Below, in pieces: positions 121 through 20,519 of a DNA stretch of 25,277 nt; position 1 is the first letter of the stretch; each line of letters opens with the position of its first letter. The translations under genes and the position numbers were made by a program. The notes below the pieces were generated by a model, which saw nothing but the letters and a program-made list of their open reading frames with translations, was not told where the DNA came from and made no database searches. This DNA is from an uncultured Candidatus Saccharibacteria bacterium (GTDB lineage Bacteria > Patescibacteriota > Minisyncoccia > CAZCIQ01), in contig CAZCIQ010000005.1 in NCBI GenBank assembly GCA_964499175.1, forward strand, positions 12,331 to 37,607, in the 5' to 3' direction.

Positions 121-1119
121 TTGCATTACTTACCAAGCAAAAAATTTATTTTAGCGATTGTGGCATTAGCCGTAATATTTACGGCTGGTTTTACGTACTA
201 CAAATACAAAAATAGCCCGCTAAAAAAAGAATTGGCTTATGAAAAAAAGGCTGTTGTCGAGCCGAAAAAATTAAACGAATTTTTAGACAAAGACACGGAT
301 AATGACGGTTTAAAAGATTGGGAAGAGGCATTGTGGAAAACAGACCCGAATAATCCGGATACGGATAAGGACGGTATCTTGGATGGAGCAGAAGTAAAAT
401 TAAACAGAGACCCCGTTAAGGCGGGGCCGAATGACCAACTTGAAACGGAAAAAGGTTCAAACGACGCAAGCTCCGACACTCTTACGGATCGCATAGGCAA
501 AGAATTTTTAATAGATTATCTGGCAAGAAAAGGAAAAGATAATCTTACAGACAGCCAGAAAAAAACCATTGTAAATTCAATGATTACTAAATTGATAAAT
601 CCGAGCGAAGAACAAACTTCGGTTGCTTACGAGCTAAAAGATATAAAAACATCAGACGATAATTCAAAAGAGGCCGTGAAAAAATACGCGAACGAAATGG
701 GTGTCGCGTTTCAAAATTTTAATTCAATTGAAACGGCGGAGATGGCAATTCTTTCCGAAATATTATTTAACGAAGAAGAAGAGTTTCCCGAGAAAATAGA
801 AGAGCTTAAAGCAAACAGGCTTGTTTATGAAAAAACGGTAAAAGATACGCTGAAAATAATCGCTCCGAAAAAATATGAAAATGTGAGCCTTGATATAACA
901 AATACCCTAAACGAAACCGCTAAAAATATTGCTAAAATGGAAATAATTTATACTGACCCGGCACAGACAACCATTGCCATTCAAAATTATTTTGACGAAT
1001 CAAAAAATACCATACAAATACTTAAAAATTTTAAAGACAGCCTAAATAAAGACAAAATCTTTTTAAAGCCTGACGAACCGGGATATATGTTCACGACAAG
1101 TTACATTTCATCATTATGA
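121..1119 (+). CDS. Membrane-anchored hypothetical protein with acidic DxDxDG calcium-binding-like repeats (thrombospondin type 3 / dockerin-like). Start uncertain: TTG at 121 or GTG at 160.
   Basis: 332-aa ORF with an N-terminal hydrophobic helix FILAIVALAVIFTAGF. Motifs DTDNDGLKDWEE and DTDKDGILDGAE. No in-frame ATG near the 5' end. Overlaps the next ORF by 4 bp (ATGA). Confidence 0.5.
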   Translation: MHYLPSKKFILAIVALAVIFTAGFTYYKYKNSPLKKELAYEKKAVVEPKKLNEFLDKDTDNDGLKDWEEALWKTDPNNPDTDKDGILDGAEVKLNRDPVKAGPNDQLETEKGSNDASSDTLTDRIGKEFLIDYLARKGKDNLTDSQKKTIVNSMITKLINPSEEQTSVAYELKDIKTSDDNSKEAVKKYANEMGVAFQNFNSIETAEMAILSEILFNEEEEFPEKIEELKANRLVYEKTVKDTLKIIAPKKYENVSLDITNTLNETAKNIAKMEIIYTDPAQTTIAIQNYFDESKNTIQILKNFKDSLNKDKIFLKPDEPGYMFTTSYISSL

Positions 1120-3281
1120 ATTTTAATTTTAAAAAAACCGCGATAGTTTTTCTTCTAGCTATTTTTATAATAACCAATATTTTGGTTTACCCATTTGAAG
1201 CTATTGCCCTTTCTACCTCCGGCGGTGTTAAAGCTTTCGCGACCGCGGTAGGTTGTTATGGAAAAAGCGGAATACTAAGCAAAGCAAAAGGTTACGCGGA
1301 AAAACTTGTTGGGAAAAAAGTGTCAGGCGCCATAGGTAAAGCAAAAAGCGCGGTTGTAAACAAGGGAAAAGAAATCTTCAACAAAGTCTTTAAAAACAAA
1401 GCAAAAGACGCGGCGGAAAAAGTGTTAGGGAAAGCTCTTCCTCCTAGCATTTTAGGCGGAGGAGCGAGAGTGCCCACACGAACTCTCGGAGATGAAAGCG
1501 AAGGAGGAATTTATAATGAAACAAAAAAAGGATTTGATACTTTAAATAATTATAAAAAGGACGAAAAAAAGAAAGAAAGATGCGAAGATTCTATTGTGAG
1601 TCAAATGGCTAAATTTCTTATAAGAAAAATGGTGGACGATTTGGCTAAGTGGATTAGAGGAGGAGCGCAAGGCAAACCAAGATTCATACAAGATTTTGGA
1701 AAATATTTAAGCGAAGCAGGAGATGTTGCCGGAGGGCTTTTTTTGGAACAATTAATGGGAGACGCGAGTCCGCTTTGCGAGCCCTGGAAACTTGACATAG
1801 CTTTAAACCTTCCAAAAAGAAAAGGTTTTAGTTTTGACGCCCAATGCAAAATTTCCGAAATCGTGAACGCCTACAATCTATCAGGTATAAATGTGGATAT
1901 AAACGGCAATCCGGTGAATATTACTATTGAAGATAGTTTTAATGACTTTTCAAAAACAGGCTGGGCCGGATATTTTACAATGATTTTTAATAATCCTATT
2001 GGAGATACGCTGGACGCTTTGCAAGAATTAGAAAACCGAAAAAATCTAGCAAAAGAAAAAGCTAAGCTTGAAGCCCAAGTAAATCAAGGATTGCTTATAA
2101 GCTCCTGTACTAAAGAATTTAATGGATTAGGCGGTAAAAAATGCTCAAAATGGGAAATAACAACGCCAGGCGTGGCAATTGCTTCAGCCGTAGGAAAATT
2201 GTTTCCGTCCAATATTGACGAATTGTTTCTTGCGGATGAAATCAATGAACTGGTTGCCGCGACAATAGACGGAATTAAATCAAGAAGGCTCTGGAGCGAT
2301 GAAGGAGTGTCGGGATTTAGTTCGTCCGGCGGAAGAGGAGGCTGGCTTTCGGACGACGACCCTCTAAACACCGGGGAAGACATTTTTAATCCGCCTAATA
2401 TCATATTAGACTCAACGGAAGAATCTTTAATTTCAGCTCTTGACGATTTTATTTTTGAAGAAACGGATTATCTCACTTTAAAACAAGAATCTTTAAAAGT
2501 TATTAACACGGAAATTCTAGTGATGATGGACGATTTAATAGCAAAAACAAAAAAGAAAAAAGATAAAAAAGATCTGGAAAAACAAAAAAAAGATTTTGAA
2601 AAACAAATTATTGTCATTGACCGACAAATAACAGAATCGAAATCACTAGTTTATGAAAAAGACGGCGACCCGATTGAAAAACTTTTGACTATCAAATATC
2701 CAAACTGGGTATTTGACACGGAACAAAGAGAAGATTTTTGCGCCGAGCCAACCGCGAATTCAAACGAGCTAAGGCTTTTGCCAATGACTAAAGCTGAAGT
2801 AATATGCGCTGTGGACCAAGATAAAATTAACGAACTCGCGGACTTCATAAATAATGATTTATATTTAATGCTTGGCTCGGCAAGCGACGCCGCGAGCGAA
2901 TATGAAAACATAACATCCGTAAGAAGCGACTTAAGGGACCGTCTGAATCTTAATCCGCCTCTTGGAAGTCACGAAAGCAACGACAATGCGACTTGCTCCA
3001 TAAAAGGCTGGGCTTATGACACAGACACGCCCGGCGCAAGAGTGAATATAAGGGCTTTGCTAAACGAAGACGAATCAAGCGCTATTTCCGGCGTAGCGAA
3101 TATTGAAAGAAACGAGATAGCCGTTTGCACTCCGGAAAAATTCTGCGGCTTTGAAATATCTTTAATCGGCGCGGTTGCAAGCAGCACTCCAACTTCAATA
3201 ACAGTCCAAGCTCAAGACACGAGCGATGAAGAAAGCTGGAGCGATTTGGAAGATACGCCAAAAGAGATAACCTGCGTGTAA
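1116..3281 (+). CDS. Large secreted or membrane-anchored hypothetical protein (721 aa) with an N-terminal signal/TM segment and several cysteines.
   Basis: Long ORF. N-terminus KKTAIVFLLAIFIITNILVYPFEAIA is signal-peptide-like, followed by a lysine-rich region. Translationally coupled to the upstream ORF. First gene of the T4SS-like block. Confidence 0.5.
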   Translation: MNFNFKKTAIVFLLAIFIITNILVYPFEAIALSTSGGVKAFATAVGCYGKSGILSKAKGYAEKLVGKKVSGAIGKAKSAVVNKGKEIFNKVFKNKAKDAAEKVLGKALPPSILGGGARVPTRTLGDESEGGIYNETKKGFDTLNNYKKDEKKKERCEDSIVSQMAKFLIRKMVDDLAKWIRGGAQGKPRFIQDFGKYLSEAGDVAGGLFLEQLMGDASPLCEPWKLDIALNLPKRKGFSFDAQCKISEIVNAYNLSGINVDINGNPVNITIEDSFNDFSKTGWAGYFTMIFNNPIGDTLDALQELENRKNLAKEKAKLEAQVNQGLLISSCTKEFNGLGGKKCSKWEITTPGVAIASAVGKLFPSNIDELFLADEINELVAATIDGIKSRRLWSDEGVSGFSSSGGRGGWLSDDDPLNTGEDIFNPPNIILDSTEESLISALDDFIFEETDYLTLKQESLKVINTEILVMMDDLIAKTKKKKDKKDLEKQKKDFEKQIIVIDRQITESKSLVYEKDGDPIEKLLTIKYPNWVFDTEQREDFCAEPTANSNELRLLPMTKAEVICAVDQDKINELADFINNDLYLMLGSASDAASEYENITSVRSDLRDRLNLNPPLGSHESNDNATCSIKGWAYDTDTPGARVNIRALLNEDESSAISGVANIERNEIAVCTPEKFCGFEISLIGAVASSTPTSITVQAQDTSDEESWSDLEDTPKEITCV

Positions 3282-3285
3282 GTTT

Positions 3286-3353
3286 TTAAGGTTTGACCTT
3301 AAAGAGGAACCCCGCTAAAGCGGAACAAAGGGAAAAGGTCAAACCTTAAAGAG
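3286..3353 (+). promoter_or_regulatory. Structured intergenic element. Palindromic unit aaggtttgacctt (3288-3300) and its reverse complement aaggtcaaacctt (3335-3347) flank a small ccgc-taaa-gcgg hairpin. A direct repeat accttaaagag occurs at 3296-3306 and 3343-3353.
   Basis: Read directly. Each 13-mer is self-complementary and the two are mutual reverse complements. Lies between the 721-aa ORF stop (3279-3281) and the VirB6-like start (3366). Confidence 0.4.
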
Positions 3354-3365: not shown

Positions 3366-6300
3366 ATGAAAAAAAATTGTAAAACAAAAAATAAAATTAA
3401 TTTTAAAATAAAAAATTATTTTTTAATATTTGTAATTCTTCAAATTACAATTTCGCCTTTAATATCGTTTGCGGCACCGGCAGCAGCGCCTGTAAATGAT
3501 TTTAAAAATTTTGAAAAAACCATAGGAGACGTGCCCTGTGATTTAAAAGTAAGCTGCTGGGTGGTGTCGGTGATGGCTTGGATTGGTTATAGAATACTTC
3601 AAATAGTAAATGTCTTTTTTTATGTGTCTGTCCAAATTTTTAACCTAAGCGCTAATTTATCTCTTAATTATGCCGCTTACAGCAAAAATACCGCCGTTGC
3701 CGTATATAACGGCTGGAAATTAGCCCGCGACTTTATGAATCTGTTTTTCATATTCGTAATTCTTTTCATAGCCATATCAATAATACTCCAGCTTCATACT
3801 TATGGTTCTCAAAAAGTTCTTTTTAGGCTGATTGGAGTCGCGATTTTCATAAATTTCAGCTTTTTTGTAACCCAGCAAGTTATAGTCGCTTCAAATTCAA
3901 TGGCTTTGTTTTTTGCGAAATCCAATGACGTAAGCGTGTTTTCTTCTCCTATCGTAACGGCTCTTAATCCTCAAAACACTTTAAAAGGCTATCATATAAC
4001 AGTTAAATCAATAGCCGAATCAACTAAAAAAATGGACGTGGAACAACGAAAGAAAGTCTGTGAAGATGTATATACTGACGCAAAAATTACAAGCATAGAT
4101 ATAAAAAATTGCGACCCATTAGTACCAAATTGTGGATTCGGTAAGGCGGAAAAAGATCGTTGTTTGGCCGGAGCGGAAAATAAATTAGACGCTAAAAACA
4201 CGGAAGCTATGCTTAAAGATTTAGAGGATAGCTTAAATCCGGAAACCGCTTTGTTGCCTGTCATTATTACCACAATAGGAGGTATTGCCGTGATTCTAAC
4301 TGCTTGTTTTATATTTTTAGCAGGAGCGATTATGTTTGTGCTTAGAACCGTGGTTTTATGGATTCTGCTAATTTTATCTCCAATAGCTTTTATGTCGTTC
4401 GCCTTGCCTAGCGGGGAAAGTTTTATGAGAAAATGGTGGAGCAGACTTTTTAAAGAAGCGTTTTTCGCTCCGGCAATGATGTTTATGCTTTTTATTGTCT
4501 TTAAAATAATTACTTATAAAGACCCAGCAACCAACCTGACTTTTCTTGAAAGATTCGTTCTTCAAAATAATCAAACCGGCATAGGCGAATCATTTGTTTT
4601 TAATTTTTATTTAGTTTTACAATATATATTTCTATTAATCTTGCTTGGAAGCAGTCTAGTGGTGGCCCGAAGTCTTGGAGCAAAAGGATCAAGCGTGGCG
4701 GTAAGCTGGGGTTCCAAAGCCGCTTATTTCGCGGGCGGAGCCGCGGCCGGAGCGCTTATCACAAGACCAGCCAGGCGCTATGCCGCCGGAGCGGCTGAAA
4801 AAATAGCAACTGCCAAACCTGAAGGCCGAGTGGGCAAAGCGTTATCCGGCCTTGCCGGGCTCACCGGCATAACGGCCGCAAGCCGCTTAATTGCCGGTGG
4901 TGAAAAGAAACGAATAGAAGATGTGGAAAAACAATGGAGCAAATATTCTCCCAAAGAAACGGCGGCGTCTATTGGAAGCGGGAAGTTTCTTACGAGAGAA
5001 GGGTTGGTGGGCAGAGTCGGCGCCTTGGCTAAAGAAAATAAACTTGACTTGCTTAAACCCGAACAATTGCGACAGGCTCATAAATATATGAGCCAGCTCG
5101 GAATGGATACTTCTAAAATAGAAACATATATGCCGTCCTTAGCTAAAGATGACGCGGCAAGAGAAAAAGCGATTCAAAGTCAAAGTCCGGATAAAGTCGG
5201 CGGGATTCTTAAAAACACTGAAGAATTCGCTCAAAAAAGAGACGCCGCAGGAAATGTTGTCGGGCCAAACGATAATCAAAAACATCTTGAAAAATATTGG
5301 GGAGAGGGCCACCTTGAAGAAGCCGACAAAGCGGCGCAGACCGACAAAACAGGCAAGACCAAAGAATCTCTTAAAGAATTTTTTGACGCAATGGCGCGCG
5401 AATATAAAACCACAAACTCAGATGATGTTATAAAAGGACTAGAAAGTGAGGGCAAAAAAGCTCTGGCAGATGCCATCCGTAACAAGAGTAAAGGTCTTGG
5501 CGGAACAAAAGATATGGATAAAATTATTCCAGAACTCAATACCACCTTAACACCGCAAGGAAAAATGGATCTAAAAGCCGCCAATCAAAAATACAATCCT
5601 TCAAAAATGGATGACATTACCTCAGGACTTGAAGCTAGAGGAAACTTTAAGTTGGCAAAAGCCTTAAAAACCGAGGAAGGAGAAACGATATTTAAAAAGA
5701 ACGCCACAGGCGGGAAAGACTTTGAAACCGGTTCGCAACTTACGGCGCAAAAAGCAAAACAAACATTACAGCTAAACGACGCGGGCGTGGCGAATATTAT
5801 AAAGGCGGCAATACCGGCGCCGGGAAAAACGGTTTCAGAAGAAGACAAGAAAAAAACCGTTGACACCCTAAATGCCGCGGACACTAAGAGAATGGTTGCT
5901 CTGCTTGAAGAATTAAGCGCGACCGAAAGAAGAGAGTTGCGGCAAATGCTTAAATCCCGAGACGCAAAACTTGAACAAAAAGTCGGAACGGCTGAAAGAG
6001 AAAGAACGGAACAAACTTTGAAATTAGAAGACCAAGAAATCGCGGATAGGATGAAAAAAGTAACGGCAACGTCTTCTGAAGAAGAAAGAAAAGAAGTCGC
6101 GAACATAGGAATAACGGCAAATGACAAAAAACTATTAGAAATTCTGGAAAAATTAAGCCCAAGCGAAAGAAAAGAGCTTAAAAATGTAGCCGATACGACT
6201 GATGTAAAGTTGGCTGAGAGACTAGTGAAATCGTACCCAGAACTTGCGACGCAAAAAACAATAACAATGCCAAACGGCACCACAAAACCTGAAAGCCCTG

Positions 6301-6674
6301 AAGCAGAGCGTCAAAAAGTTTTTGGAAGTATGAAAAAAGAAGATATCCAAAACTTTGATTACGCAGGATTAAAAACCAGAACAACGCCAATTGATTTGGC
6401 GAAAATTATAGACGATATGATAAAATCATTTAATATCGGACATCTTAAAGCATTATATGAAAAAGAAGGCCAAATGCGGGAAGATTTTGTAAACAGATTA
6501 AAAGTAAATGTTGAAAAAGATCTTGGCAAAACACCTTCTTTAGGTGAAGCTCCCGGAAGCACGGTTAACGCCAATGAAATAGCCGATTATATGGCAAAAA
6601 AATTAAAAAGACCTGAAATGGCAAATTCCATAAGAACAGGTCCTAGTGTGCGTGAAATATTAGGCTTACCATAA
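3366..6674 (+). CDS. virB6: VirB6/TrbL-like polytopic T4SS inner-membrane protein, 1102 aa. Signal peptide, about 7-8 TM helices and a large loop in the first ~430 aa. An Ala/Gly-rich linker is followed by a ~650-aa lysine/glutamate-rich hydrophilic C-terminal extension with internal repeats.
   Basis: The hydrophobicity pattern (FLIFVILQITISPLISFAAPAAAP signal, multiple TM blocks, cysteine-rich loop CEDVYTD...NCDPLVPNCGFG) fits VirB6/TrbL topology. Position is upstream of the VirB3-like and VirB4 genes. Family call made by eye. Confidence 0.5.
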   Translation: MKKNCKTKNKINFKIKNYFLIFVILQITISPLISFAAPAAAPVNDFKNFEKTIGDVPCDLKVSCWVVSVMAWIGYRILQIVNVFFYVSVQIFNLSANLSLNYAAYSKNTAVAVYNGWKLARDFMNLFFIFVILFIAISIILQLHTYGSQKVLFRLIGVAIFINFSFFVTQQVIVASNSMALFFAKSNDVSVFSSPIVTALNPQNTLKGYHITVKSIAESTKKMDVEQRKKVCEDVYTDAKITSIDIKNCDPLVPNCGFGKAEKDRCLAGAENKLDAKNTEAMLKDLEDSLNPETALLPVIITTIGGIAVILTACFIFLAGAIMFVLRTVVLWILLILSPIAFMSFALPSGESFMRKWWSRLFKEAFFAPAMMFMLFIVFKIITYKDPATNLTFLERFVLQNNQTGIGESFVFNFYLVLQYIFLLILLGSSLVVARSLGAKGSSVAVSWGSKAAYFAGGAAAGALITRPARRYAAGAAEKIATAKPEGRVGKALSGLAGLTGITAASRLIAGGEKKRIEDVEKQWSKYSPKETAASIGSGKFLTREGLVGRVGALAKENKLDLLKPEQLRQAHKYMSQLGMDTSKIETYMPSLAKDDAAREKAIQSQSPDKVGGILKNTEEFAQKRDAAGNVVGPNDNQKHLEKYWGEGHLEEADKAAQTDKTGKTKESLKEFFDAMAREYKTTNSDDVIKGLESEGKKALADAIRNKSKGLGGTKDMDKIIPELNTTLTPQGKMDLKAANQKYNPSKMDDITSGLEARGNFKLAKALKTEEGETIFKKNATGGKDFETGSQLTAQKAKQTLQLNDAGVANIIKAAIPAPGKTVSEEDKKKTVDTLNAADTKRMVALLEELSATERRELRQMLKSRDAKLEQKVGTAERERTEQTLKLEDQEIADRMKKVTATSSEEERKEVANIGITANDKKLLEILEKLSPSERKELKNVADTTDVKLAERLVKSYPELATQKTITMPNGTTKPESPEAERQKVFGSMKKEDIQNFDYAGLKTRTTPIDLAKIIDDMIKSFNIGHLKALYEKEGQMREDFVNRLKVNVEKDLGKTPSLGEAPGSTVNANEIADYMAKKLKRPEMANSIRTGPSVREILGLP

Positions 6675-8795: not shown

Positions 8796-8830
8796 TAAAA
8801 TAAAATCCCGTGAACATTCACGGGATATAA
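8796..8830. terminator. Bidirectional rho-independent terminator between convergent genes. Stem atcccgtga / tcacgggat has T/A-rich runs on both sides.
   Basis: Perfect 9-bp inverted repeat at 8796-8804 / 8809-8817 with a 4-nt loop. Plus-strand downstream is ataatttttatt. The minus-strand reading is followed by ttttatttta. Confidence 0.55.
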
Positions 8831-11737: not shown

Positions 11738-11767
11738 TCCACGCTCTATATGAGGAAAAAGACGGCT

Positions 11768-13597: not shown

Positions 13598-15403
13598 ATG
13601 TCTTTATTTCAAAAAACAAAAATTGAAAAAAACGAAGATGACAAAATAATACCGGTATTTCCCGAGGAAATTTATAAAGAAGCCGTTTTGGAATTGCAGG
13701 ATATAATCGCTCCCTCGGCTCTTGAAATAAGTTCAAATCACATAAGACTCGGTGAAAAATATTGCAGAACGATATTTATATTTTCTTATCCGCGGTTTGT
13801 TTCAACCGGCTGGCTTTCGCCAATTATAAACCTTGATAAAATTTTTGACATATCAATATTCATTCATCCCATAAGCACCTCTTCCATATTAAGAAAGCTG
13901 CAAAACAAAACCGCCGCGGTGCAGGCGCAAATAAGCGAAAGGGAAGACAAAGGATTCGTCCGCGATCCAATGCTTGACACCGCCTATCAAGACTTGGAAG
14001 ACTTAAGAGATAAACTAATGCAGGCAACGGAAAAAATATTTGACGTAGGGCTTTACATTACGGTCTACGCCGATTCGCTGGAAGACTTAAATAAAGCCGA
14101 AACAGAAATAAGATCAATACTTGAAGCGCGTCTTGTCTACGCCAAACCGGCTCTTTTTGAACAAAAAGAAGGGCTTGAGAGCGTGTTTCCTCTTTCAACC
14201 GATTCGCTTGGCATAAGTTCAAAACTTAACACCGCTCCTCTTTCAAGCATTTTTCCTTTTGTGTCTTTTGACTTAACTTCTAATAAAGGGATTCTCTACG
14301 GCATAAACCGCCACAACAGCAGTTTAATTTTGTTTGACAGATATTCAATGGAAAATTACAATTCCGTTGTTTTTGCCAAAGCCGGCGCCGGAAAAAGTTA
14401 TTTCAGCAAACTGGAAATATTGCGCTCATTAATGATTGGCGCCGAAGTGATAGTCATAGACCCTGAAAGAGAATACGAACACTTGGCGGAAACTGTCGGC
14501 GGAAGTTTTTTTAAAATATCCCTGACTTCGGAGCACCACATAAATCCTTTTGACTTGCCGCCTCCAAGAGAAGACGAATCGCCATCGGATATTTTACGAA
14601 GCAACATCATAAACTTAATCGGCATCTTAAGAATTATGCTGGGAAGCATCACTCCCGAGGAAGACTCCATACTTGATAAAGCGATAACGGAAACTTACGC
14701 CTCGCGCGACATAACTCCTGACGCCGATTTTTCAAACAGGCCCGTACCGATTTTATCGGATTTGGAAATGATTCTGGCAGGAATGGCGGGCGGAGAAGAT
14801 TTAGCTCAGCGCCTTAAAAAATTTACGACAGGCACGTGGGCCGGATTTATAAACCAGCCGACAAATGTTGAAATAAATAAAAAATTAACCGTTTTTTCAA
14901 TAAGAGATATGGAAGACGAATTACGTCCTGTCGCTATGTATCTCATAATACACCACATCTGGAATGAAGTGCGGAGAGAAATTAAAAAAAGACTTTTGGT
15001 GGTGGACGAGGCTTGGTGGATGATGAAATCAGAGGACGGAGCTTCGTTTCTTTACGGCTTGGCGAAAAGAGCGAGAAAATATTTTTTAGGGCTTTCCACG
15101 ATTACCCAAGATGTCGGCGACTTTTTAAGTTCGCCCTACGGCAAACCTATAATAACAAACTCCTCAATACAAATCCTTCTAAAGCAGTCTCCCGCCACGA
15201 TAGAAACTCTTAAAGAAGTTTTTAATTTGACGGACGAAGAAAAATTCATACTTTTGGAATCTGATGTGGGAGAAGGAATATTTTTTGCCGGGCTAAAACA
15301 CGCGGCAATAAAAGTAGTGGCGTCTTACACCGAAGACCAAATTATCACAACCGATCCGGCTCAACTTTTAGAGATTAAAAAAGCGAGAGAGGAGTTGAGT
15401 TAA
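13598..15403 (+). CDS. virB4: VirB4/TrbE/CagE-family T4SS ATPase, C-terminal ~600 aa (CagE_TrbE_VirB region plus AAA ATPase). The probable start is ATG 13598. The ORF track's TTG start at 13550 lies upstream of the putative promoter.
   Basis: IAPSALEISSNHIRLGEKYCRTIFIFSYPRFVSTGWLSPIINLD...DISIFIHPI is the conserved VirB4 middle region. Walker A is VVFAKAGAGKSYFSK and Walker B is RLLVVDEAWWMM. It lacks the ~200-aa N-terminal region that is encoded at 8108-8716. Confidence 0.8.
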   Translation: MSLFQKTKIEKNEDDKIIPVFPEEIYKEAVLELQDIIAPSALEISSNHIRLGEKYCRTIFIFSYPRFVSTGWLSPIINLDKIFDISIFIHPISTSSILRKLQNKTAAVQAQISEREDKGFVRDPMLDTAYQDLEDLRDKLMQATEKIFDVGLYITVYADSLEDLNKAETEIRSILEARLVYAKPALFEQKEGLESVFPLSTDSLGISSKLNTAPLSSIFPFVSFDLTSNKGILYGINRHNSSLILFDRYSMENYNSVVFAKAGAGKSYFSKLEILRSLMIGAEVIVIDPEREYEHLAETVGGSFFKISLTSEHHINPFDLPPPREDESPSDILRSNIINLIGILRIMLGSITPEEDSILDKAITETYASRDITPDADFSNRPVPILSDLEMILAGMAGGEDLAQRLKKFTTGTWAGFINQPTNVEINKKLTVFSIRDMEDELRPVAMYLIIHHIWNEVRREIKKRLLVVDEAWWMMKSEDGASFLYGLAKRARKYFLGLSTITQDVGDFLSSPYGKPIITNSSIQILLKQSPATIETLKEVFNLTDEEKFILLESDVGEGIFFAGLKHAAIKVVASYTEDQIITTDPAQLLEIKKAREELS

Positions 15404-15425: not shown

Positions 15426-15968
15426 ATGCAACAAATAGAAGAACAAAGACTGGCAAGATTAAATGAAAATTTAAACGCGAAAAAAACAAACGACAACAAG
15501 CAATACAACCGATTTCACGAAGAATTTGAAAAAGACGAAGACTATAGAGATACGGAAATTTCACCTGAAGAATTTAAAGAAATAAGGGCCCAAACACCGG
15601 AAATACCTCATTTTCCTTTACTGATTTTTACGATCGCCATGCTTAAAGATTTTATTGATATTATGGTTGTTTTTATAACAGTAACAACAGCGGGAATGGG
15701 ACTTGTATTAACGGTTATAGTCTGGATTATAACCGCGATTATGGCGGCGGTGATATGGCTTTGGATATTTAATAAATCAACATTCATAAGAAAATGGATT
15801 ATAAAAAAAGCCGCAAGAAGAATTGCCTTGTTTTTCTTAATAAAAATAACTCCTCTTTTATATGTGGCGCCAACCGCTTCTTTAACCGTATATCTTGTTT
15901 ATAAAAGCGAGTCGGGTTTTATTGGAAAAATAATTGACGCTGTGGAAAAAGTGGAAAAAATTGTTTAA
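15426..15968 (+). CDS. Small polytopic membrane protein, 180 aa with 3-4 TM helices. A T4SS-associated hypothetical.
   Basis: Hydrophobic blocks LLIFTIAML, VVFITVTTAGMGLVLTVIVWIITAIMAAVIWLWIF and ALFFLIKITPLLYVAPTASLTVYLV. Lies immediately downstream of VirB4. Confidence 0.45.
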   Translation: MQQIEEQRLARLNENLNAKKTNDNKQYNRFHEEFEKDEDYRDTEISPEEFKEIRAQTPEIPHFPLLIFTIAMLKDFIDIMVVFITVTTAGMGLVLTVIVWIITAIMAAVIWLWIFNKSTFIRKWIIKKAARRIALFFLIKITPLLYVAPTASLTVYLVYKSESGFIGKIIDAVEKVEKIV

Positions 15969-16164: not shown

Positions 16165-17172
16165 GTGATTTTGTATCCAAACAAAACTATGAAAAAAATA
16201 TTAAAATTTGCCGTAGCGCCGCTTCTTGTTTATATTTTTTATTTTAGTTCAACTTTCGCGGCAATGAATTTTCCAAGCTCAAACGACTTCAATATTTCTC
16301 CTTCAAACAGATTTCCATACCCAAACGAAGAAATAGAGGCCAAAATAAGAGACGCCACCTTTGACATTAACCGCTCTTACATAAACTGGTATTTAAACGA
16401 GAAACTGATAAGTGAAGGGAGGGGAAACGATAAAATAAATTTTAAAGCGGGGGATACGGGTTCTAAAATAAATCTTTCCGCCATAATCCAAACCCCGAAC
16501 GGAACAGCCGCGAAAAAATCCGTTGTTTTAAATGTTTCAGATATTGATTTGCTCTGGAGCGCGAACACCTACGCTCCTTATTTTTATAAAGGAAAAAACA
16601 TGGCAACCCCGATGTCAGAAGTAAGGGTCGGCGCCATTCCTTATTTCAACTCTCCAAACAAAAAAACGGCTTCGGAAAATTTATTTTTCAAATGGTTTTT
16701 AAACGATAATTTGGAAAATCAAGGACAAGGAAAAGACGCGCACACCTTTAAAACCGGAGTTTTTAGCGATGATGATTATAATGTCAAAGTGGAAATCGCG
16801 AGTGCCGACAACAGACTTTTCCAACAAAAATCAATAACCGTGAAAACGGAAAAACCAGAAATACTATTTTACGAATACTCTCCGCTTCTCGGAGTAAAAA
16901 GTCAGGAAACTGTTTCGCAATTTAAAACTTTTGCGGGCGATTATAAGCAATTTGTAGCCGAACCTTTTTATGTTCCTTACGACAAAAAAGAGGAATTAAA
17001 TTACGAATGGAGCGTGAACGGCCAAAAACTAAAAAATTTAAACGCGCCCTTAAACATAATCAACTTTGCGTCGGAAAAAGGCCAAGAAGGTCTGTATAAT
17101 ATGAATTTAACAGTATCATATAAAAATTTATTAGAAAAAATCAGCAATAGTTTTTCAGTGAATTTAGAGTAA
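16165..17172 (+). CDS. Secreted hypothetical protein (335 aa) with an N-terminal signal peptide.
   Basis: KKILKFAVAPLLVYIFYFSSTFAA is signal-like. Rich in N/K/S. No recognised domain. Confidence 0.5.
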   Translation: MILYPNKTMKKILKFAVAPLLVYIFYFSSTFAAMNFPSSNDFNISPSNRFPYPNEEIEAKIRDATFDINRSYINWYLNEKLISEGRGNDKINFKAGDTGSKINLSAIIQTPNGTAAKKSVVLNVSDIDLLWSANTYAPYFYKGKNMATPMSEVRVGAIPYFNSPNKKTASENLFFKWFLNDNLENQGQGKDAHTFKTGVFSDDDYNVKVEIASADNRLFQQKSITVKTEKPEILFYEYSPLLGVKSQETVSQFKTFAGDYKQFVAEPFYVPYDKKEELNYEWSVNGQKLKNLNAPLNIINFASEKGQEGLYNMNLTVSYKNLLEKISNSFSVNLE

Positions 17173-17183
17173 AGCAATAGACG

Positions 17184-17216
17184 ACTTTTACAGAACATGC
17201 GACGTCCTGTAAAAGT
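17184..17216 (+). promoter_or_regulatory. Stem-loop acttttacag-(13 nt)-ctgtaaaagt overlapping the annotated start of the pilin-like gene. It may be an intercistronic terminator or stabiliser.
   Basis: Perfect 10-bp inverted repeat. The loop contains a gacgtc palindrome. Confidence 0.35.
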
Positions 17217-17652
17217 AAAAAATATGGAAAAAATTGGCAGAATAACTTTTTATACATCATTTTTACTTATAAATTTATTTTATATTTCTTTTGTGTCTTT
17301 TGCAGCGGATATAAACCTTACCCCTCCCGGCATAGGAGGAGCTATAGATCCCTCAACAGGAAACCCGATACCGGGCACACCGGCAACCACGCCAGATTTT
17401 ATAGAATACTTAGACTGGCTTTATAAAATACTACTCGGGTCAACCGGAATTTTAGCTTTAATTATAATAGTGGCCGGAGGTATTATGTATGTGTTAGCGG
17501 GAGCGTCAGGCAAACCTCAAGATATAACACAAGCCAGAACAATGATACTGTCCGCCATAGCCGGTCTGCTTCTCGCCCTAGGCTCTTGGATAATATTAAA
17601 CACTATAAACCCCGACTTATTAAAAAAAGGTTTAGACTTAAACAAATATTAA
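17197..17652 (+). CDS. VirB2/TrbC-like T4SS pilin candidate. Signal peptide, then two hydrophobic helices separated by a short polar loop. The true start is probably ATG 17224 (MEKIG...).
   Basis: Signal sequence SFLLINLFYISFVSFAAD. Helix 1 is LGSTGILALIIIVAGGIMYVLAGASG. Loop is KPQDITQAR. Helix 2 is TMILSAIAGLLLALGSWIILNTI. This is the typical VirB2/TrbC architecture. Confidence 0.5.
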   Translation: MRRPVKVKNMEKIGRITFYTSFLLINLFYISFVSFAADINLTPPGIGGAIDPSTGNPIPGTPATTPDFIEYLDWLYKILLGSTGILALIIIVAGGIMYVLAGASGKPQDITQARTMILSAIAGLLLALGSWIILNTINPDLLKKGLDLNKY

Positions 17653-17653: not shown

Positions 17654-18832
17654 ATGGATCGCAAAAAAATATTTTTAATAACCGCAATAATAATTTTAAT
17701 AATTTTAGGAATAATTTTTTATTTCGCTTTAACGAAAAAAGATGGATCTAATATCCCGATTATTTCCAACCTATTTCCTGAAACAGGAAATATAAAAAAA
17801 GAAAACGGCGAAGACGGTTTAGACAAAGAAACAAACACAATTAATATTGAAGGGGGTAAAGAACAAGAGATAACAAAAATTTCGGATAAATCCGTCGTTG
17901 GAGCCGTATACGACCAAAAAATAAATAAAATAAAATACGCGGATAAAGCGAACGGACACATTTACGTAACCGAATCTGACGGAAAAAATACGGAAAGGAT
18001 TTCAAACACGACAATTTTAAATGTTTTTAATGTCGCCTGGTCGTTTGACAAAAATAAAGCCATACTTCAATTTCTTAAAGAAGGCGAAATAAATAATTTT
18101 TCAGCTTCATTTACAAGCTCAAGCACGGAAGGACTTTTTCTGTCAAAAAACATTAAATCTCTCGCGCCATCCTTAACTGAAAATAAATTGGCTTATATTG
18201 AAGATATAAACGGAAGAGGAGTGGTTTTTATTTCCGATTTTGAAAATAAAAACAAACAGCAAACTACCTCTTTACCGATAAGCGATTTTAACTTGGATTG
18301 GAAAAATAAAGACTCTTTAAGCCTTGTTTCAAAACCGGCGTTTTCTGTTTTAGGATATTTGTATTCACTGAATTTAAAAGATAAGACTGTGCAAAAATTA
18401 ATTGAAGAAGAAAGTTTAAACGCGCTATGGTCAAAAGACGGAAAAAATATTTATATAACTAAAAACACGGAAAGCGGCATAGAAAATAAGGTCATTGAAT
18501 CGCAAACAAAAAAGGAATATCCGTTAAGTGTCAAAACTTTTGTTGAAAAATGCGCGTGGAGCGCGCTTCAAAAAGAAATTATTTTCTGCGCCGCGCCACT
18601 TAATTTCGCTTATGAGAAATATCCGGACGACTGGTACAAAGGAAAAAAAGTTTTTAACGACGCGCTATATAAAATCAACTATACAACCGGCGCAAATGAA
18701 ATTTTACTGGAAAAAGAAATGAAAAATCGCGATTTTGATATGACAAATTTATTTTTCAGCCCCGAAGAAAAATATCTCTTTTTTATAAATAAAAAAGATT
18801 CTTCTTTATGGAGCGTAAAATTAAAGAATTAA
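17654..18832 (+). CDS. Membrane-anchored hypothetical protein, 392 aa. Has an N-terminal TM helix and a possible beta-propeller-like extracytoplasmic domain.
   Basis: N-terminus KIFLITAIIILIILGIIFYFAL. Repeated segments such as GHIYVTESDGKN and KDGKNIYITKNTESG are loosely PD40/TolB-like. Low confidence on the fold. Confidence 0.4.
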   Translation: MDRKKIFLITAIIILIILGIIFYFALTKKDGSNIPIISNLFPETGNIKKENGEDGLDKETNTINIEGGKEQEITKISDKSVVGAVYDQKINKIKYADKANGHIYVTESDGKNTERISNTTILNVFNVAWSFDKNKAILQFLKEGEINNFSASFTSSSTEGLFLSKNIKSLAPSLTENKLAYIEDINGRGVVFISDFENKNKQQTTSLPISDFNLDWKNKDSLSLVSKPAFSVLGYLYSLNLKDKTVQKLIEEESLNALWSKDGKNIYITKNTESGIENKVIESQTKKEYPLSVKTFVEKCAWSALQKEIIFCAAPLNFAYEKYPDDWYKGKKVFNDALYKINYTTGANEILLEKEMKNRDFDMTNLFFSPEEKYLFFINKKDSSLWSVKLKN

Positions 18833-18841: not shown

Positions 18842-19303
18842 TTAAACCGGTTTTATCACAACCTTTCTGTTTTCCCCGTCTCCCATACTTTCCGTTTTAA
18901 TATCCGGATATTCGCTTAAAACGGTGTGAATTATTCTTCTTTCAAAAGAGTTCATCGGTTCAAATTCAACTTCTTTTTTAAAAAATCTTACCCTCTGCGC
19001 GTTCATCTTGGCGACTTCTTTCAAATTATTAATTTTCTTGGAGTAATAACCGTTAACATCCAAAGAAAACGGAGGCATTTCTTTATTTTTGTCCTTAAAA
19101 ATTTTATAAGCCATCTTTTTTAAAATATGAGAAAAAGAGAAAAGATTCTGGCCGTTCTCTCCTATTAAAATTCCGGCTTCGTTTGTGGTTATCGTGAAAA
19201 CAGGATAATCAACACCGGACACAATTTCTATGGTGCCATTTATTCCCATCTTTTCCAAGAAAGACTCGGTTATATTTTTAATTGCATCGTAATCTTTTGA
19301 CAT
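18842..19303 (-). CDS. jag: Jag/KhpB-type RNA-binding protein (KH-like plus R3H domain).
   Basis: R3H signature ...FERRIIHTVLSEYPDIKTESMGDGENRKVVI. Position downstream of yidC fits the conserved rnpA-yidC-jag operon. Confidence 0.7.
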   Translation of the reverse strand: MSKDYDAIKNITESFLEKMGINGTIEIVSGVDYPVFTITTNEAGILIGENGQNLFSFSHILKKMAYKIFKDKNKEMPPFSLDVNGYYSKKINNLKEVAKMNAQRVRFFKKEVEFEPMNSFERRIIHTVLSEYPDIKTESMGDGENRKVVIKPV

Positions 19304-19314
19304 ATTATTGATAA

Positions 19315-20049
19315 TTAAGACTGGTTGGATAAATATTTTCTTCTTATAAAATTCTCTTGCACTATAGCAAAGAAATTCATTGTTGTCCAGTATAAAGAAA
19401 CCGCGGCCGGAAATCTAAGAGCGATAAAAAAAATAAATGCCGGCATTATATACTTCATCTGAAATGACAAAGAACGTTTTAATACATCTTCAAAACTATC
19501 TGACTTGCCGCTTGAAGCGGTTTGAGGGGTTTTTAATGGAGAACTTAAATACATCTGGAGAAATTGGGACGCACCGGTTAAAACCGCCAAAAACAAACTT
19601 TTTCCCGTAATATCAAGAATTCCCAAAAAAAGAAAGTTCGGATTTTGAGGCTCCATTAAAAAAGAATATAAACTATGATCAACGGCCAAGCCTTTCCAAA
19701 AAACCTGATAAAGAGCTATAAGAATCGGCAGTTGTATTAAAATAGATAAAAAACCGGAATAAGGACTGATTCCGTTTCTCTTATATATGTTTAATATTTC
19801 TTGCGTTTGCTTATGTCTATCAGCACTATTTTCGCGCGCTTTTTTTATATCCGGCTCTATTTTTTGAATCTTAACCTGTGTTTTGATTGAATGTTGGGTT
19901 AAGGGAAAAATAATAATTCTTGTTAAAATAGTAAGAAGTATTATTGCCAAACCGACATCATTCCCCGGAATAATGTTTATCAAAAAAACCAATCCGTTAA
20001 ACAGCGGGCGGTAAAAAATTTCGTTATATAAAAAAAATAAAATACTCAT
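19315..20049 (-). CDS. yidC: Membrane protein insertase YidC (short form).
   Basis: 244 aa with multiple TM helices. PLF...IILLTILTRIIIFPLT and ...ILIQLPILIALYQVF are typical of the YidC/Oxa1 core. Sits between rnpA and jag. Confidence 0.8.
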   Translation of the reverse strand: MSILFFLYNEIFYRPLFNGLVFLINIIPGNDVGLAIILLTILTRIIIFPLTQHSIKTQVKIQKIEPDIKKARENSADRHKQTQEILNIYKRNGISPYSGFLSILIQLPILIALYQVFWKGLAVDHSLYSFLMEPQNPNFLFLGILDITGKSLFLAVLTGASQFLQMYLSSPLKTPQTASSGKSDSFEDVLKRSLSFQMKYIMPAFIFFIALRFPAAVSLYWTTMNFFAIVQENFIRRKYLSNQS

Positions 20050-20381
20050 TTTATTAATTTCACCTCTCTTAAGGCGCTAACAATTTCTTCTTTAAGCTTA
20101 TTAAAATTAGCTTTTAACACCTCTTTTTTAAATAAAAAAATCATCAAACACGGCGCGTTAAACTCATGAAGCAATCCAAGAACAACATTTCTCGCCCTTC
20201 TCTTAATCCTGTTCCTATGCGCGGCATGCTTTGAAACCGAAGAAGAAACAACAAAACCCGCCTTTATTCCTTCGCCGCTTTCTTTGTAAATCAAGTTGAA
20301 ATCAGCGTAGGAATTTTTCTTCCCTTTTAAGAACAATGGCTTAAAATGCTTTTTTTCTAAACGGTTTTTTAAAGGAAGCAC
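20046..20381 (-). CDS. rnpA: Ribonuclease P protein component RnpA (GTG start).
   Basis: Basic 111-aa protein with the RNR motif ...AAHRNRIKRRARNVV. Immediately downstream of rpmH. Overlaps yidC by 4 bp. Confidence 0.75.
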   Translation of the reverse strand: MLPLKNRLEKKHFKPLFLKGKKNSYADFNLIYKESGEGIKAGFVVSSSVSKHAAHRNRIKRRARNVVLGLLHEFNAPCLMIFLFKKEVLKANFNKLKEEIVSALREVKLIK

Positions 20382-20384
20382 GGT

Positions 20385-20519
20385 TTAAATTGTTATTTTT
20401 TTTCTTCCCTTTATCCTTCTTCTTTTAATTATTCTTTTTCCGGCCGCATTCCTTGTTCTTTTTAAAAATCCATGCTTTCTCGCTCTTTTTTTCTTTTTGG
20501 GCTTGTAAGTTGTGGACAT
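20385..20519 (-). CDS. rpmH: 50S ribosomal protein L34 (44 aa). Not in the supplied ORF track because it is under 60 aa.
   Basis: Hand translation of the minus strand gives MSTTYKPKKKKRARKHGFLKRTRNAAGKRIIKRRRIKGRKKITI*. This matches the L34 consensus (M..TYQPS...RKRRHGFR.RM.T..GR.VL..RR.KGRK.L). Confidence 0.85.
   Translation of the reverse strand: MSTTYKPKKKKRARKHGFLKRTRNAAGKRIIKRRRIKGRKKITI

What the first reader, a model, noticed from the sequence alone, without database searches (positions are those of the whole stretch)
121..20519. T4SS-like cluster lacking relaxase and coupling protein, placed directly beside the chromosomal origin
Genes for VirB6-like, PrgI/VirB3-like, VirB4 and VirB2-like pilin proteins, plus several secreted and anchored proteins, run up to the rpmH-rnpA-yidC-jag / dnaA-dnaN origin cassette. 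No VirD4-type coupling ATPase, relaxase or oriT-like region was found in 25 kb. This fits a chromosomally fixed, non-conjugative T4SS of the kind proposed for host interaction in episymbiotic Patescibacteria, rather than an integrative conjugative element.
Basis: inference. Interest (0 to 1): 0.55.

Follow-up and report, generated by a model that had tools for sequence, protein, structure and literature searches.

The report
Known Patescibacteria secretion locus beside origin
This is the standard chromosomal type IV secretion gene cluster of Paceibacteria (ultra-small "candidate phyla radiation" bacteria), sitting next to the replication origin as in its relatives; a 2025 paper already described the arrangement, and only a 4.9-kb insert of unrelated genes inside it is unusual.

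Summary
Window 121-18832 carries a monoderm-type (MPF_FATA-like) T4SS cluster: an extended VirB6-like protein, PrgI/VirB3, a VirB4 ATPase, a VirB2-like pilin and several surface proteins. It abuts jag-yidC-rnpA-rpmH | dnaA-dnaN. No coupling protein, relaxase, integrase or tRNA lies in the window or within 10 kb of virB4 in 83 related loci.

Gene order and strand are conserved across 80 Patescibacteria species genomes. dnaA is present in 58 of the 60 loci long enough to show it. Close relatives have housekeeping genes (frr, ksgA) upstream. The locus is therefore vertically inherited, not an ICE.

Quinonero-Coronel et al. 2025 (PMC12102498) report the same system, the missing relaxase and the dnaA proximity. 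Wang et al. 2023 showed the system is essential for epibiotic growth in a Saccharimonadia strain.

- VirB4 is naturally split into a TrsD-like N-domain gene (8108-8716) and the ATPase gene (13598-15403).
- These are normally 1-16 nt apart, but here a lineage-specific 4.9-kb block separates them. It holds an SPFH gene, a coiled-coil gene, a ~700-aa HExxH-domain gene broken by an in-frame TGA, and an 85-aa ORF.

Absence of a coupling protein genome-wide cannot be claimed from 25 kb. Interest is low.

The parts
121..1119 (+). g01: membrane-anchored or secreted protein with bacterial TSP3 (calcium-binding) repeats. It is the first gene of the conserved cluster.
   Evidence: PF18884, 40 bits. Positional orthologues are present in L081, L085 and L086 with faint TSP3 hits. 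tblastn finds it in 26 of 80 loci at a conserved offset.
1116..3281 (+). g02: secreted protein with a conserved ~400-aa N-terminal domain and a variable C-terminal part. The N-domain has 4 invariant Cys and W/G-rich motifs.
   Evidence: The window protein has no family hit. The 32-member family alignment A4 shows the invariant Cys. Individual members carry Ig-like, fn3, F5/8-C or InlB-B-repeat modules. No PDB sequence relative was found.
3366..6674 (+). g03: extended VirB6-like polytopic membrane protein. It has a ~480-aa TM core and a ~620-aa hydrophilic C-terminal extension.
   Evidence: NF046089, 21.7 bits, colinear match. The family profile's top PDB match is TrwI/VirB6 7o3v_F, E=0.0097. 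Seven of 61 family members hit PF04610. Present in 60 of 80 loci at a conserved offset.
6714..7604 (+). g04: conserved small protein with a helical N-domain and a proline-rich middle. Function unknown.
   Evidence: No family hit. tblastn finds it in 41 of 80 loci at a conserved position.
7619..8032 (+). g05: PrgI / VirB3-like membrane protein.
   Evidence: PF12666, 39.2 bits against a cut-off of 27. Present in 75 of 80 loci.
8108..8716 (+). g06: TrsD-like protein, a stand-alone VirB4 N-terminal domain. Here it ends 18 codons early at a TAG.
   Evidence: It matches N-terminal positions of the VirB4 profiles NF045971 (2-137) and NF045975, and matches TrsD NF041427, all at E about 1e-8. Relatives are 219-239 aa with PF26593 TraC-like. 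Present in 79 of 80 loci and never fused to virB4. The window has TAG where L081 has GAG. dN/dS is 0.12.
8805..8826 (.). Bidirectional hairpin terminator between the convergent trsD-like and SPFH genes.
   Evidence: 9-bp stem with T-runs on both strands.
8849..10132 (-). g07: SPFH/Band-7 membrane protein. It is the first gene of the accessory insert and is shared with the closest relative, L081.
   Evidence: PF01145, 52.6 bits. Absent from all 80 species loci. Present at the same place in L081.
10430..11110 (+). g08: membrane-anchored coiled-coil protein in the insert, followed by a strong terminator at 11118-11137.
   Evidence: Only coiled-coil-type weak hits. Terminator. No homologue in the 80 loci.
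11102..13231 (-). g10 plus g09: one ancestral ~700-aa gene broken by an in-frame TGA at 11768-11770. It encodes an N-terminal TM anchor and a C-terminal HExxH-motif domain.
   Evidence: g09 matches the C-terminal ~200 aa of 650-720-aa proteins. g10 aligns to residues 39-497 of the same protein, P0127. The in-frame TGA follows an A10 run. No Pfam family for the homologues.
13221..13478 (-). g11: 85-aa ORF at the head of the minus-strand g11-g10-g09 unit in the insert.
   Evidence: ORF list. No significant family hit. Absent from the 80 loci.
13598..15403 (+). g12: VirB4 ATPase of the Patescibacteria clade. It lacks the N-terminal domain carried by g06.
   Evidence: NF045971, 355 bits against a cut-off of 325, matching profile positions 183-728. 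PF19044, PF12846 and PF03135 hit. The 601-aa form P0001 is 100% identical, and 72-85% identical homologues occur across Paceibacteria. It aligns to PrgJ residues 228-772. dN/dS is 0.03.
15426..15968 (+). g13: small polytopic membrane protein that is always found just after virB4. Function unknown.
   Evidence: Positional ORFs of 109-299 aa in 47 loci and in L081-L087. No profile similarity to the pilin family (hhalign probability 1%).
16189..17172 (+). g14: secreted or anchored protein made of Ig-like repeats.
   Evidence: The family profile A3 matches phage T4 Hoc (3shs), E=2.4e-5, and other Ig domains. Present in 78 of 80 loci.
17197..17652 (+). g15: VirB2-like T4SS pilin.
   Evidence: PF18895, 24.1 bits against a cut-off of 26.6. 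NF045849, 29 bits. Orthologues in relatives carry unmarked PF18895 hits.
17654..18832 (+). g16: N-terminally anchored TolB-like beta-propeller protein. It is the last gene of the cluster.
   Evidence: TIGR02800, weak, residues 85-311. Present in 68 of 80 loci at a conserved offset.
18842..20519 (-). jag/khpB (18842-19303), yidC (19315-20049), rnpA (20046-20381) and rpmH (20388-20519).
   Evidence: PF01424, PF02096, PF00825 and PF00468, all above cut-off.
20520..23499 (+). Origin region: rpmH-dnaA spacer with a perfect DnaA box (20608-20616), dnaA (20734-22092), an AT-rich dnaA-dnaN spacer (22093-22365) and dnaN (22366-23499).
   Evidence: DnaA and DnaN Pfam hits. Box counts and GC of the spacers. 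The cumulative GC-skew minimum falls at 20-21 kb.

Best explanation
**Identity (shown).** This is the canonical, vertically inherited chromosomal T4SS locus of a Paceibacteria-class Patescibacterium. It is derived from the monoderm MPF_FATA conjugation machinery.

**Core parts.**
- An extended VirB6-like polytopic membrane protein.
- A PrgI/VirB3-like protein.
- A VirB4 ATPase naturally split into a TrsD-like N-domain protein and a ~600-aa ATPase.
- A VirB2-like pilin.

**Conserved accessory parts.** These are surface proteins: a TSP3-repeat protein, a Cys-rich protein with variable adhesin-type modules, an Ig-repeat protein, a beta-propeller protein and a small membrane protein.

**Location (shown).** The operon lies immediately beside jag-yidC-rnpA-rpmH | dnaA-dnaN, as in most Paceibacteria.

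**Mechanism (inferred).** There is no local coupling protein or relaxase, so it most likely does not conjugate. It most likely works as a VirB4-powered envelope machine. That machine would build a VirB2-type pilus or channel and mediate contact-dependent exchange with a host cell. This role matches the one shown to be essential for epibiotic growth in Saccharimonadia.

**Peculiarity of this genome.** A 4.9-kb block of unrelated accessory genes sits in the normally 1-16-nt trsD|virB4 junction. virB4 and the genes downstream must therefore be transcribed from their own promoter. The system is still under purifying selection.
For: - **Family assignments:**
- **VirB4 relatives:** the homologues that carry source names are all Patescibacteria, 72-85% identical, and all ~600 aa.
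- **Synteny in 80 species genomes:** TrsD-like 79, PrgI 75, VirB6-like 60, Ig-repeat gene 78, propeller 68, yidC 62 and dnaA 60, all in the same order and on the same strands. dnaA is present in 58 of the 60 loci long enough to show it.
- **Split VirB4:** none of 79 loci has trsD fused to virB4, and the usual gap is 1-16 nt.
- **Conjugation genes:** no T4CP, relaxase or integrase was found by family scans. tblastn over 1.5 Mb also found none, while the PrgJ control hit 84 of 84 sequences.
- **tRNA:** none in the window or the five close-relative loci scanned.
- **Flanks in close relatives:** housekeeping genes.
- **Selection:** dN/dS against the nearest relative is 0.03 for VirB4 and 0.12-0.29 for the rest.
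- **Insert:** its genes are absent from all 80 loci. It is only partly shared with L081.
- **Literature:** the same system, its lack of a relaxase and its dnaA proximity are described in PMC12102498. Essentiality in S. epibionticum is reported via PMC12857230.
Against: - Function is inferred from a different class (Saccharimonadia). No Paceibacteria T4SS has been tested.
- Neither the substrate nor the direction of transport is known.
- A VirD4-type homologue may exist elsewhere in this genome; such homologues are common in Patescibacteria. Only 25 kb was available, and the 37.6-kb source contig could not be fetched.
- The window's own pilin and VirB6-like proteins score below curated cut-offs. 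Their assignment rests on family-level evidence.
- No VirB8- or VirB1-like component was identified.
- The insert and the premature TAG in the trsD-like gene could impair expression.
Confidence: 0.85

Rival explanations
1. DNA- or nucleotide-uptake machine. On this reading the T4CP- and relaxase-less T4SS imports DNA from the host or the environment. It would work like the Helicobacter ComB system or the archaeal Ced system, supplying nucleotides to an organism that cannot make them.
For: ComB and Ced also lack relaxases (established knowledge). VirB4 gives weak hits to CedB (39 bits) and CedD (20 bits). In the ABY1 class the T4SS co-localises with comF, recG and radA.
Against: In S. epibionticum, loss of comEC abolishes competence but not viability, while the T4SS is essential. 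Its essential role is therefore not natural transformation. No competence or recombination gene is adjacent here or in the Paceibacteria loci viewed. The CedB and CedD scores are far below the CD1110 conjugation-type score of 355 bits.
Confidence: 0.12
2. Remnant of an integrative conjugative element that landed next to the origin and lost its relaxase, coupling protein and integrase.
For: The components are homologous to the MPF_FATA conjugation genes of plasmids and ICEs. The published view is that the system was originally acquired from monoderm conjugative elements.
Against: The acquisition would be ancient, not a property of this locus. Order, strand and origin junction are identical in 80 species genomes. 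VirB4 is 67-85% identical across orders. Published trees show class-congruent VirB4 clades. Flanks are housekeeping, and no integrase, tRNA or att-like repeats were found.
Confidence: 0.03
3. A decaying, non-functional copy. On this reading the 4.9-kb insert uncouples the trsD-like gene from virB4, the trsD-like gene has a premature TAG, and the system is being lost in this lineage.
For: The junction is 1-16 nt in most relatives but 4,881 nt here, with a terminator after the trsD-like gene. The TAG shortens the TrsD-like protein by 18 residues. A gene inside the insert carries an in-frame TGA.
Against: All cluster ORFs are intact and full length. dN/dS is 0.03-0.29 against L081, which also carries an insertion at this site. 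The lost tail is a short, poorly conserved C-terminus. The 48 nt upstream of virB4 are conserved with L081, and that stretch contains a promoter-like site (13561-13589).
Confidence: 0.05

Closest known systems
Patescibacteria-clade T4SS (Quinonero-Coronel et al. 2025, PMC12102498; S. epibionticum ML1 T4SS, Wang et al. 2023)
   Same: It has a VirB4 of the CD1110/MPF_FATA type with a separate TrsD-like partner. It also has PrgI/VirB3, VirB6-like and VirB2-like pilin genes near virB4. There is no relaxase or T4CP nearby. It is chromosomal and lies next to dnaA, dnaN, rnpA and rpmH, as reported for Paceibacteria.
   Different: This genome has one pilin gene rather than the 6-gene pilin array of ML1. 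No VirB1-like hydrolase or VirB8-like gene was recognised. A 4.9-kb accessory insert separates the trsD-like gene from virB4, an arrangement seen in none of 79 species-level relatives. The VirB6-like protein is unusually long (1102 aa against a median of 780).
MPF_FATA conjugative T4SS of Gram-positive plasmids (pGO1/pSK41 TrsC-TrsD-TrsE; pCF10 PrgH-PrgI-PrgJ)
   Same: The VirB4 is the same family: it aligns to PrgJ residues 228-772 at 24% identity. It has a PrgI-type VirB3. The split into TrsD and VirB4 matches the pGO1 subclass.
   Different: There is no T4CP (PcfC/TrsK), relaxase (PcfG/Nes), PrgK-type hydrolase, PrgL-type VirB8 or PrgB-type adhesin. A VirB2-like pilin is present, which Gram-positive conjugation systems lack. 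It is chromosomal and vertically inherited rather than on a mobile element.
T4CP-less effector-secreting T4SSs (Bordetella Ptl, Brucella VirB)
   Same: These work without a coupling protein or relaxase and are chromosomal machines dedicated to host interaction.
   Different: They are diderm MPF_T systems with VirB7, VirB9 and VirB10 outer-membrane cores and a VirB11. None of these is present here.
DNA-uptake T4SS-like systems (Helicobacter ComB; archaeal Ced)
   Same: They have a VirB4-type ATPase and a VirB6-like channel protein without a relaxase.
   Different: Sequence similarity to CedB and CedD is marginal. No competence genes are adjacent. Genetics in Saccharimonadia separates the essential T4SS role from transformation.

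Membership tests
Patescibacteria-clade / MPF_FATA-type T4SS | VirB4 ATPase of the CD1110 / MPF_FATA type with intact Walker motifs | tested here: met
   NF045971 scores 355 bits against a cut-off of 325. PF19044, PF12846 and PF03135 are above cut-off. Walker A (AGAGKS) and Walker B (VVDEAW) are in the translation. The nearest homologues that carry source names are all Patescibacteria.
Patescibacteria-clade / MPF_FATA-type T4SS | TrsD-like (VirB4 N-domain) protein encoded next to virB4 | tested here: met
   g06 matches the N-terminal positions of VirB4 profiles and TrsD at E about 1e-8, though below full-length cut-offs. Orthologues carry PF26593. It is adjacent to virB4 in 79 of 80 relatives. 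In this window a 4.9-kb insert separates the two genes.
Patescibacteria-clade / MPF_FATA-type T4SS | VirB3-like (PrgI) membrane protein | tested here: met
   PF12666, 39.2 bits against a cut-off of 27.
Patescibacteria-clade / MPF_FATA-type T4SS | VirB6-like polytopic membrane protein | tested here: inconclusive
   The window protein alone has no Pfam hit and scores 21.7 bits against NF046089 (cut-off 120). At family level, the top PDB match is TrwI/VirB6 at E=0.0097, 7 of 61 members hit PF04610, and relatives have weak TrbL or TrbL_3 hits. This is consistent but not above any curated threshold for this protein.
Patescibacteria-clade / MPF_FATA-type T4SS | VirB2-like pilin near virB4 (a peculiarity of Patescibacteria) | tested here: inconclusive
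   PF18895 scores 24.1 bits against a cut-off of 26.6, and NF045849 scores 29 against 40. Positional orthologues carry unmarked PF18895 hits on record.
Patescibacteria-clade / MPF_FATA-type T4SS | Placement of VirB4 inside the monophyletic Patescibacteria clade | not tested
   No tree was built. The 120 hits listed (8,000 scored at E<=1e-10) are ~600-aa proteins, and those that carry source names are Patescibacteria. Identity to PrgJ is 24%. This is indirect support only.
Conjugative T4SS / integrative conjugative element | Relaxase (MOB) and oriT | tested here: not met
   No relaxase family hit any window ORF. tblastn with PcfG (MOBP) and MobT found nothing in the window or 83 loci. oriT cannot be tested without a relaxase. 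The rest of the genome was not available.
Conjugative T4SS / integrative conjugative element | Type IV coupling protein (VirD4- or TcpA/FtsK-type) | tested here: not met
   No T4CP family hit. tblastn with PcfC and Tn916 Orf21 found none in 1.5 Mb, while the VirB4 control hit 84 of 84 sequences. A distant locus in the genome cannot be excluded.
Conjugative T4SS / integrative conjugative element | Integrase or recombinase, attachment repeats, and insertion at a tRNA or other target | tested here: not met
   No integrase hit. No tRNA in the window or in five close loci. Flanks in relatives are frr or ksgA and dnaA-dnaN. No convincing flanking repeats.
Chromosomal origin region (rpmH-rnpA-yidC-jag | dnaA-dnaN) | The six marker genes in canonical order, with DnaA boxes in AT-rich spacers | tested here: met
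   All six genes are above Pfam cut-offs. A perfect box lies at 20608-20616. The dnaA-dnaN spacer has 16.8% GC and 5 box-like sites, about 18 per kb against 3.9 per kb window-wide. Origin firing itself is inferred.

The most novel reading that the evidence does not exclude
The trsD|virB4 junction may be a recurrent landing site for accessory genes in Paceibacteria.

What occupies the site:
- Three of 79 species genomes hold a small four-helix-bundle gene there.
- L082 and L083 hold a DOT1-like methyltransferase.
- L081 holds an SPFH gene.
- This window holds the SPFH gene plus a coiled-coil gene and a ~700-aa membrane-anchored HExxH-domain gene.

The most novel reading not excluded is that this cargo is functionally tied to the T4SS. 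For example, the SPFH protein could act as a membrane scaffold for the machine. The HExxH protein could be a lineage-specific substrate or surface effector used on the host. The alternative is that these are neutral passengers.
Probability: 0.1. Interest if true: 0.45.

Novelty: already known. Interest (0 to 1): 0.2.

Why it matters
The Patescibacteria T4SS is of real interest. It is nearly universal in a huge uncultured radiation, it is the first T4SS shown to be essential for its owner's growth, and its substrate is unknown.

This window adds no new kind of system. It is one more Paceibacteria example of a locus whose composition, lack of a relaxase and position near the origin were catalogued across 3,035 genomes in 2025.

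Its small added value has three parts:
- An independent synteny count: 58 of 60 loci have dnaA adjacent, and none of 79 has trsD fused to virB4.
- The finding that the tightly coupled trsD|virB4 junction can tolerate a 4.9-kb insert while the genes stay under purifying selection.
- A list of conserved but unnamed cluster members (g02, g04, g13, g14, g16). These are candidates for the missing VirB8, VirB1 or adhesin roles.

Tried and rejected
- **Fetching the source contig to see beyond the window.** Exact-protein look-ups for ORF1, DnaA and the 100%-identical VirB4 (P0001) found nothing. The cluster look-up gave no name or accession. The remaining 12 kb of the 37.6-kb contig stayed unseen.
- **g14 as the missing VirB8.** Rejected. 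Its family profile matches Ig-like domains (T4 Hoc), not an NTF2-like fold.
- **g13 as a second VirB2-like pilin.** Rejected. hhalign against the pilin family gave a probability of 1%.
- **g02 as a VirB1-like hydrolase.** No hydrolase domain appeared in 32 family members, only adhesin-type modules. There was no PDB sequence relative.
- **The insert as a defence island, prophage fragment or mobile element.** PADLOC and PHROGs gave only coiled-coil noise. No integrase or transposase was found. There were no convincing terminal repeats.
- **g10 homologues by k-mer search.** Only the query itself was found. The full HMMER scan with g09 revealed the ~700-aa family, which has no Pfam domain.
- **Structure prediction from a locus-derived alignment.** Single-sequence predictions were judged uninformative and were not run.
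- **Rfam scan of the window.** No RNA family reached its gathering score.
- **Window-wide DnaA-box enrichment.** At up to 1 mismatch it is not significant: 11 observed against 5.2 expected, and 4 of 100 shuffles reached 11. The origin call therefore rests on gene content and the spacers.

Full report
**What is in the window**

The ORF list and translations and family scans give the following map.

- Plus-strand run, first part:
  - g01, 121-1119: TSP3-repeat anchored protein.
  - g02, 1116-3281: 721-aa secreted protein with no family hit.
  - g03, 3366-6674: 1102-aa polytopic membrane protein.
  - g04, 6714-7604: proline-rich protein.
  - g05, 7619-8032: PrgI/VirB3, PF12666, 39 bits.
  - g06, 8108-8716: 202 aa.
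- A block at 8849-13478, mostly on the minus strand.
- Plus-strand run, second part:
  - g12, 13598-15403: VirB4.
  - g13, 15426-15968: small membrane protein.
  - g14, 16189-17172.
  - g15, 17197-17652: T4SS pilin-like protein.
  - g16, 17654-18832: TolB-like propeller.
- Convergent with this run, on the minus strand: jag, yidC, rnpA and rpmH (18842-20519).
- Then on the plus strand: dnaA, dnaN, a SLOG-cluster4 protein and an amino-acid permease.

There is no tRNA and no Rfam family.

**Checking the observation**

- VirB4 passes the curated NCBIfam equivalog cut-off for the CD1110 conjugation family (355 bits against 325).
- The pilin is just under the Pfam threshold (24.1 against 26.6). Its positional orthologues in relatives carry unmarked PF18895 hits.
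- The VirB6-like call needed family-level evidence:
  - A 61-member alignment (A2) has R388 TrwI/VirB6 as its best PDB sequence match. That match has E=0.0097 and covers TrwI residues 99-331.
  - Seven members hit PF04610 TrbL/VirB6.
- The origin cassette is complete.
  - The rpmH-dnaA spacer holds a perfect DnaA box.
  - The 273-nt dnaA-dnaN spacer has 16.8% GC and five box-like sites.
  - The cumulative GC-skew minimum falls at 20-21 kb.

No ORF hits a coupling-protein, relaxase or integrase family.

- g06 matches positions 2-137 of the CD1110 VirB4 profile and the TrsD/TraD profile.
- g12 matches positions 183-728 of the CD1110 profile and PrgJ residues 228-772.

This is the natural TrsD + VirB4 arrangement of the pGO1 subclass, not a broken gene. 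In 79 related loci the two are always separate ORFs, none is fused, and the usual gap is 1-16 nt.

**Relatives and synteny**

- A word-indexed protein search returned 8,000 hits at E<=1e-10. The top 120 are ~600-aa proteins, 72-85% identical. Those that carry source names come from Tagabacteria, Giovannonibacteria, Niyogibacteria and other Parcubacteria/Paceibacteria.
- A scan of GTDB species genomes gave 80 Patescibacteria loci with 10-kb flanks.
- tblastn with every window protein shows the same order and strands throughout. Counts out of 80 loci:

| Gene | Loci with a hit |
|---|---|
| TrsD-like | 79 |
| g14 | 78 |
| PrgI | 75 |
| g16 | 68 |
| yidC | 62 |
| VirB6-like | 60 |
| dnaA | 60 |
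| dnaN | 57 |

- Of the 60 loci with at least 7 kb downstream of virB4, 58 contain dnaA.
- Relatives at 80-82% VirB4 identity (L085-L087) show the complete 11-gene cluster. It is bounded upstream by frr or ksgA and downstream by the origin cassette. None has a tRNA.
- tblastn with pCF10 PcfC (VirD4-type T4CP), PcfG (MOBP), Tn916 Orf21 (FtsK-type T4CP), MobT and Int found nothing in 1.5 Mb of window plus 83 loci. PrgJ found VirB4 in 84 of 84 sequences.

The cluster is therefore a vertically inherited chromosomal locus, not an ICE.

**The insert**

- None of the genes at 8849-13478 has a homologue in the 80 loci.
- The nearest relative, L081 (VirB4 96% identical), has only the SPFH gene between the trsD-like gene and virB4. 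The window carries about 3.55 kb more, at 9998-13549.
- The 85%-identity relatives have a DOT1-like methyltransferase at the same site.
- Three species genomes have a ~125-aa ORF there, whose sequence I recognise as the four-helix-bundle (23S-rRNA intervening-sequence protein) type; this was not tested against a family library.
- GC content is lower in the extra segment (0.30-0.33).
- g09 (211 aa, HESMH motif) matches the C-terminal domain of 650-720-aa proteins. g10 matches residues 39-497 of the same protein. The two are separated by an in-frame TGA after an A10 run. Together they are one broken, or mis-sequenced, ~700-aa gene of an unannotated family.
- No mobile-element, defence or phage signature was found.
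- A hairpin terminator follows the trsD-like gene. A promoter-like site lies just upstream of virB4, within 48 nt that are conserved with L081.
- The trsD-like gene ends at a TAG where L081 has GAG, which removes 18 residues.
- Despite this, dN/dS against L081 is 0.03 for VirB4, 0.12 for the TrsD-like protein and 0.13-0.29 for the other cluster genes. The system is being maintained.

**Other cluster members**

- g14 is an Ig-repeat protein: its family profile matches T4 Hoc at E=2.4e-5.
- g02 has a conserved Cys-stabilised N-domain. Its relatives carry variable Ig, fn3, F5/8-C or InlB-B-repeat C-terminal modules.
- g13 is a positionally conserved small membrane protein that is not demonstrably pilin-like.
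- No VirB8- or VirB1-like protein was recognised.

**Comparison with what is known**

Quinonero-Coronel et al. 2025 (PMC12102498) analysed 3,035 Patescibacteria genomes and report the following.

- A monophyletic VirB4 clade nested in MPF_FATA is present in 2,407 assemblies.
- TrsD is the most abundant partner.
- PrgI/VirB3, VirB6 and VirB2-like pilins lie near virB4.
- Relaxases are almost absent: 109 in total, 15 near virB4.
- VirD4 homologues are common, but only 148 of 5,713 lie near virB4.
- dnaA, dnaN, rnpA, rpmH and ksgA are abundant near virB4 in Paceibacteria and Microgenomatia. The authors interpret this as a possible gene-dosage effect.

A 2025 review (PMC12857230) summarises Wang et al. 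2023:

- The T4SS and its pilin array are essential for S. epibionticum growth on its host.
- The comEC deletion shows that this is not because of natural transformation.

**Mechanism**

- Shown: the identity of the parts, their conservation, chromosomal fixation next to the origin, and local absence of conjugation-specific genes.
- Inferred: that VirB4 (with TrsD-like and VirB3-like partners) energises assembly of a VirB6-based channel and a VirB2-type pilus. The machine would work with the conserved surface proteins to mediate contact-dependent exchange with a host cell.
- Unknown: the direction of transport and the substrate.

DNA uptake is the main rival reading (confidence 0.12). A recent ICE remnant (0.03) and a decaying system (0.05) are unlikely.

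**Verdict**

The only local peculiarity is the accessory insert in the trsD|virB4 junction. Interest is 0.2.

Noticed in passing
window 8717-13597: A 4.9-kb block of unrelated genes sits in the trsD-like|virB4 junction, which is 1-16 nt in most relatives. The block holds an SPFH gene, a coiled-coil gene, a broken ~700-aa HExxH-domain gene and an 85-aa ORF. The same site holds different cargo elsewhere: SPFH only in L081, a DOT1-like methyltransferase in L082 and L083, and a ~125-aa ORF that looks like a four-helix-bundle (23S-rRNA IVS) gene in L007, L008 and L027. That identification is by eye and was not tested against a family library.
   Followed up: yes
window 8714-8716: The TrsD-like gene ends at a TAG where the closest relative (L081) has GAG. 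This shortens the protein by 18 residues (202 aa against 220). It could be a real nonsense mutation or a base-call error.
   Followed up: partly
window 11768-11770 (minus strand): An in-frame TGA directly after an A10 homopolymer splits a ~700-aa gene into g10 (487 aa) and g09 (211 aa). Full-length homologues (for example P0127, 724 aa) cover both parts. The family has about 115 representative clusters and no Pfam domain.
   Followed up: partly
window 121-18832 versus 18842-20519 and dnaA at 20734: The whole T4SS operon is transcribed towards the origin and converges on jag-yidC-rnpA-rpmH. If oriC is at the rpmH/dnaA/dnaN spacers, the operon is head-on to the replication fork. The orientation is the same in all 60 related loci that include dnaA. 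The published gene-dosage idea does not mention this.
   Followed up: partly
window 22093-22365 and 20520-20733: The oriC-like layout is bipartite. The rpmH-dnaA spacer (21.5% GC) holds a perfect DnaA box (20608-20616) and a nearby 2-mismatch box. The dnaA-dnaN spacer (16.8% GC) holds five box-like sites.
   Followed up: partly
window 3366-6674 (residues ~480-1102): The VirB6-like protein carries a ~620-aa charged, repeat-containing hydrophilic C-terminal extension. It is much longer than in relatives (median 780 aa in total), which makes it an 'extended VirB6'.
   Followed up: no
window 13598-15403 compared with its neighbours: VirB4 is far more conserved than the rest of the cluster. Against L081 it is 96% identical in protein and 88% in DNA, while the neighbouring genes are 57-87% identical in protein. 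Its dN/dS is 0.03.
   Followed up: yes
window 23496-24074: A SLOG cluster-4 (LOG/lysine-decarboxylase-like) protein is encoded immediately after dnaN and overlaps its stop codon. None of the 80 related loci has a homologue within 10 kb of virB4.
   Followed up: no
L081 15621-16127 and L082 9132-9704: Small DOT1/CMAS-like methyltransferase genes occur at different edges of the T4SS cluster in two close relatives. In L081 the gene lies after the propeller gene. In L082 it lies in the trsD|virB4 junction.
   Followed up: no
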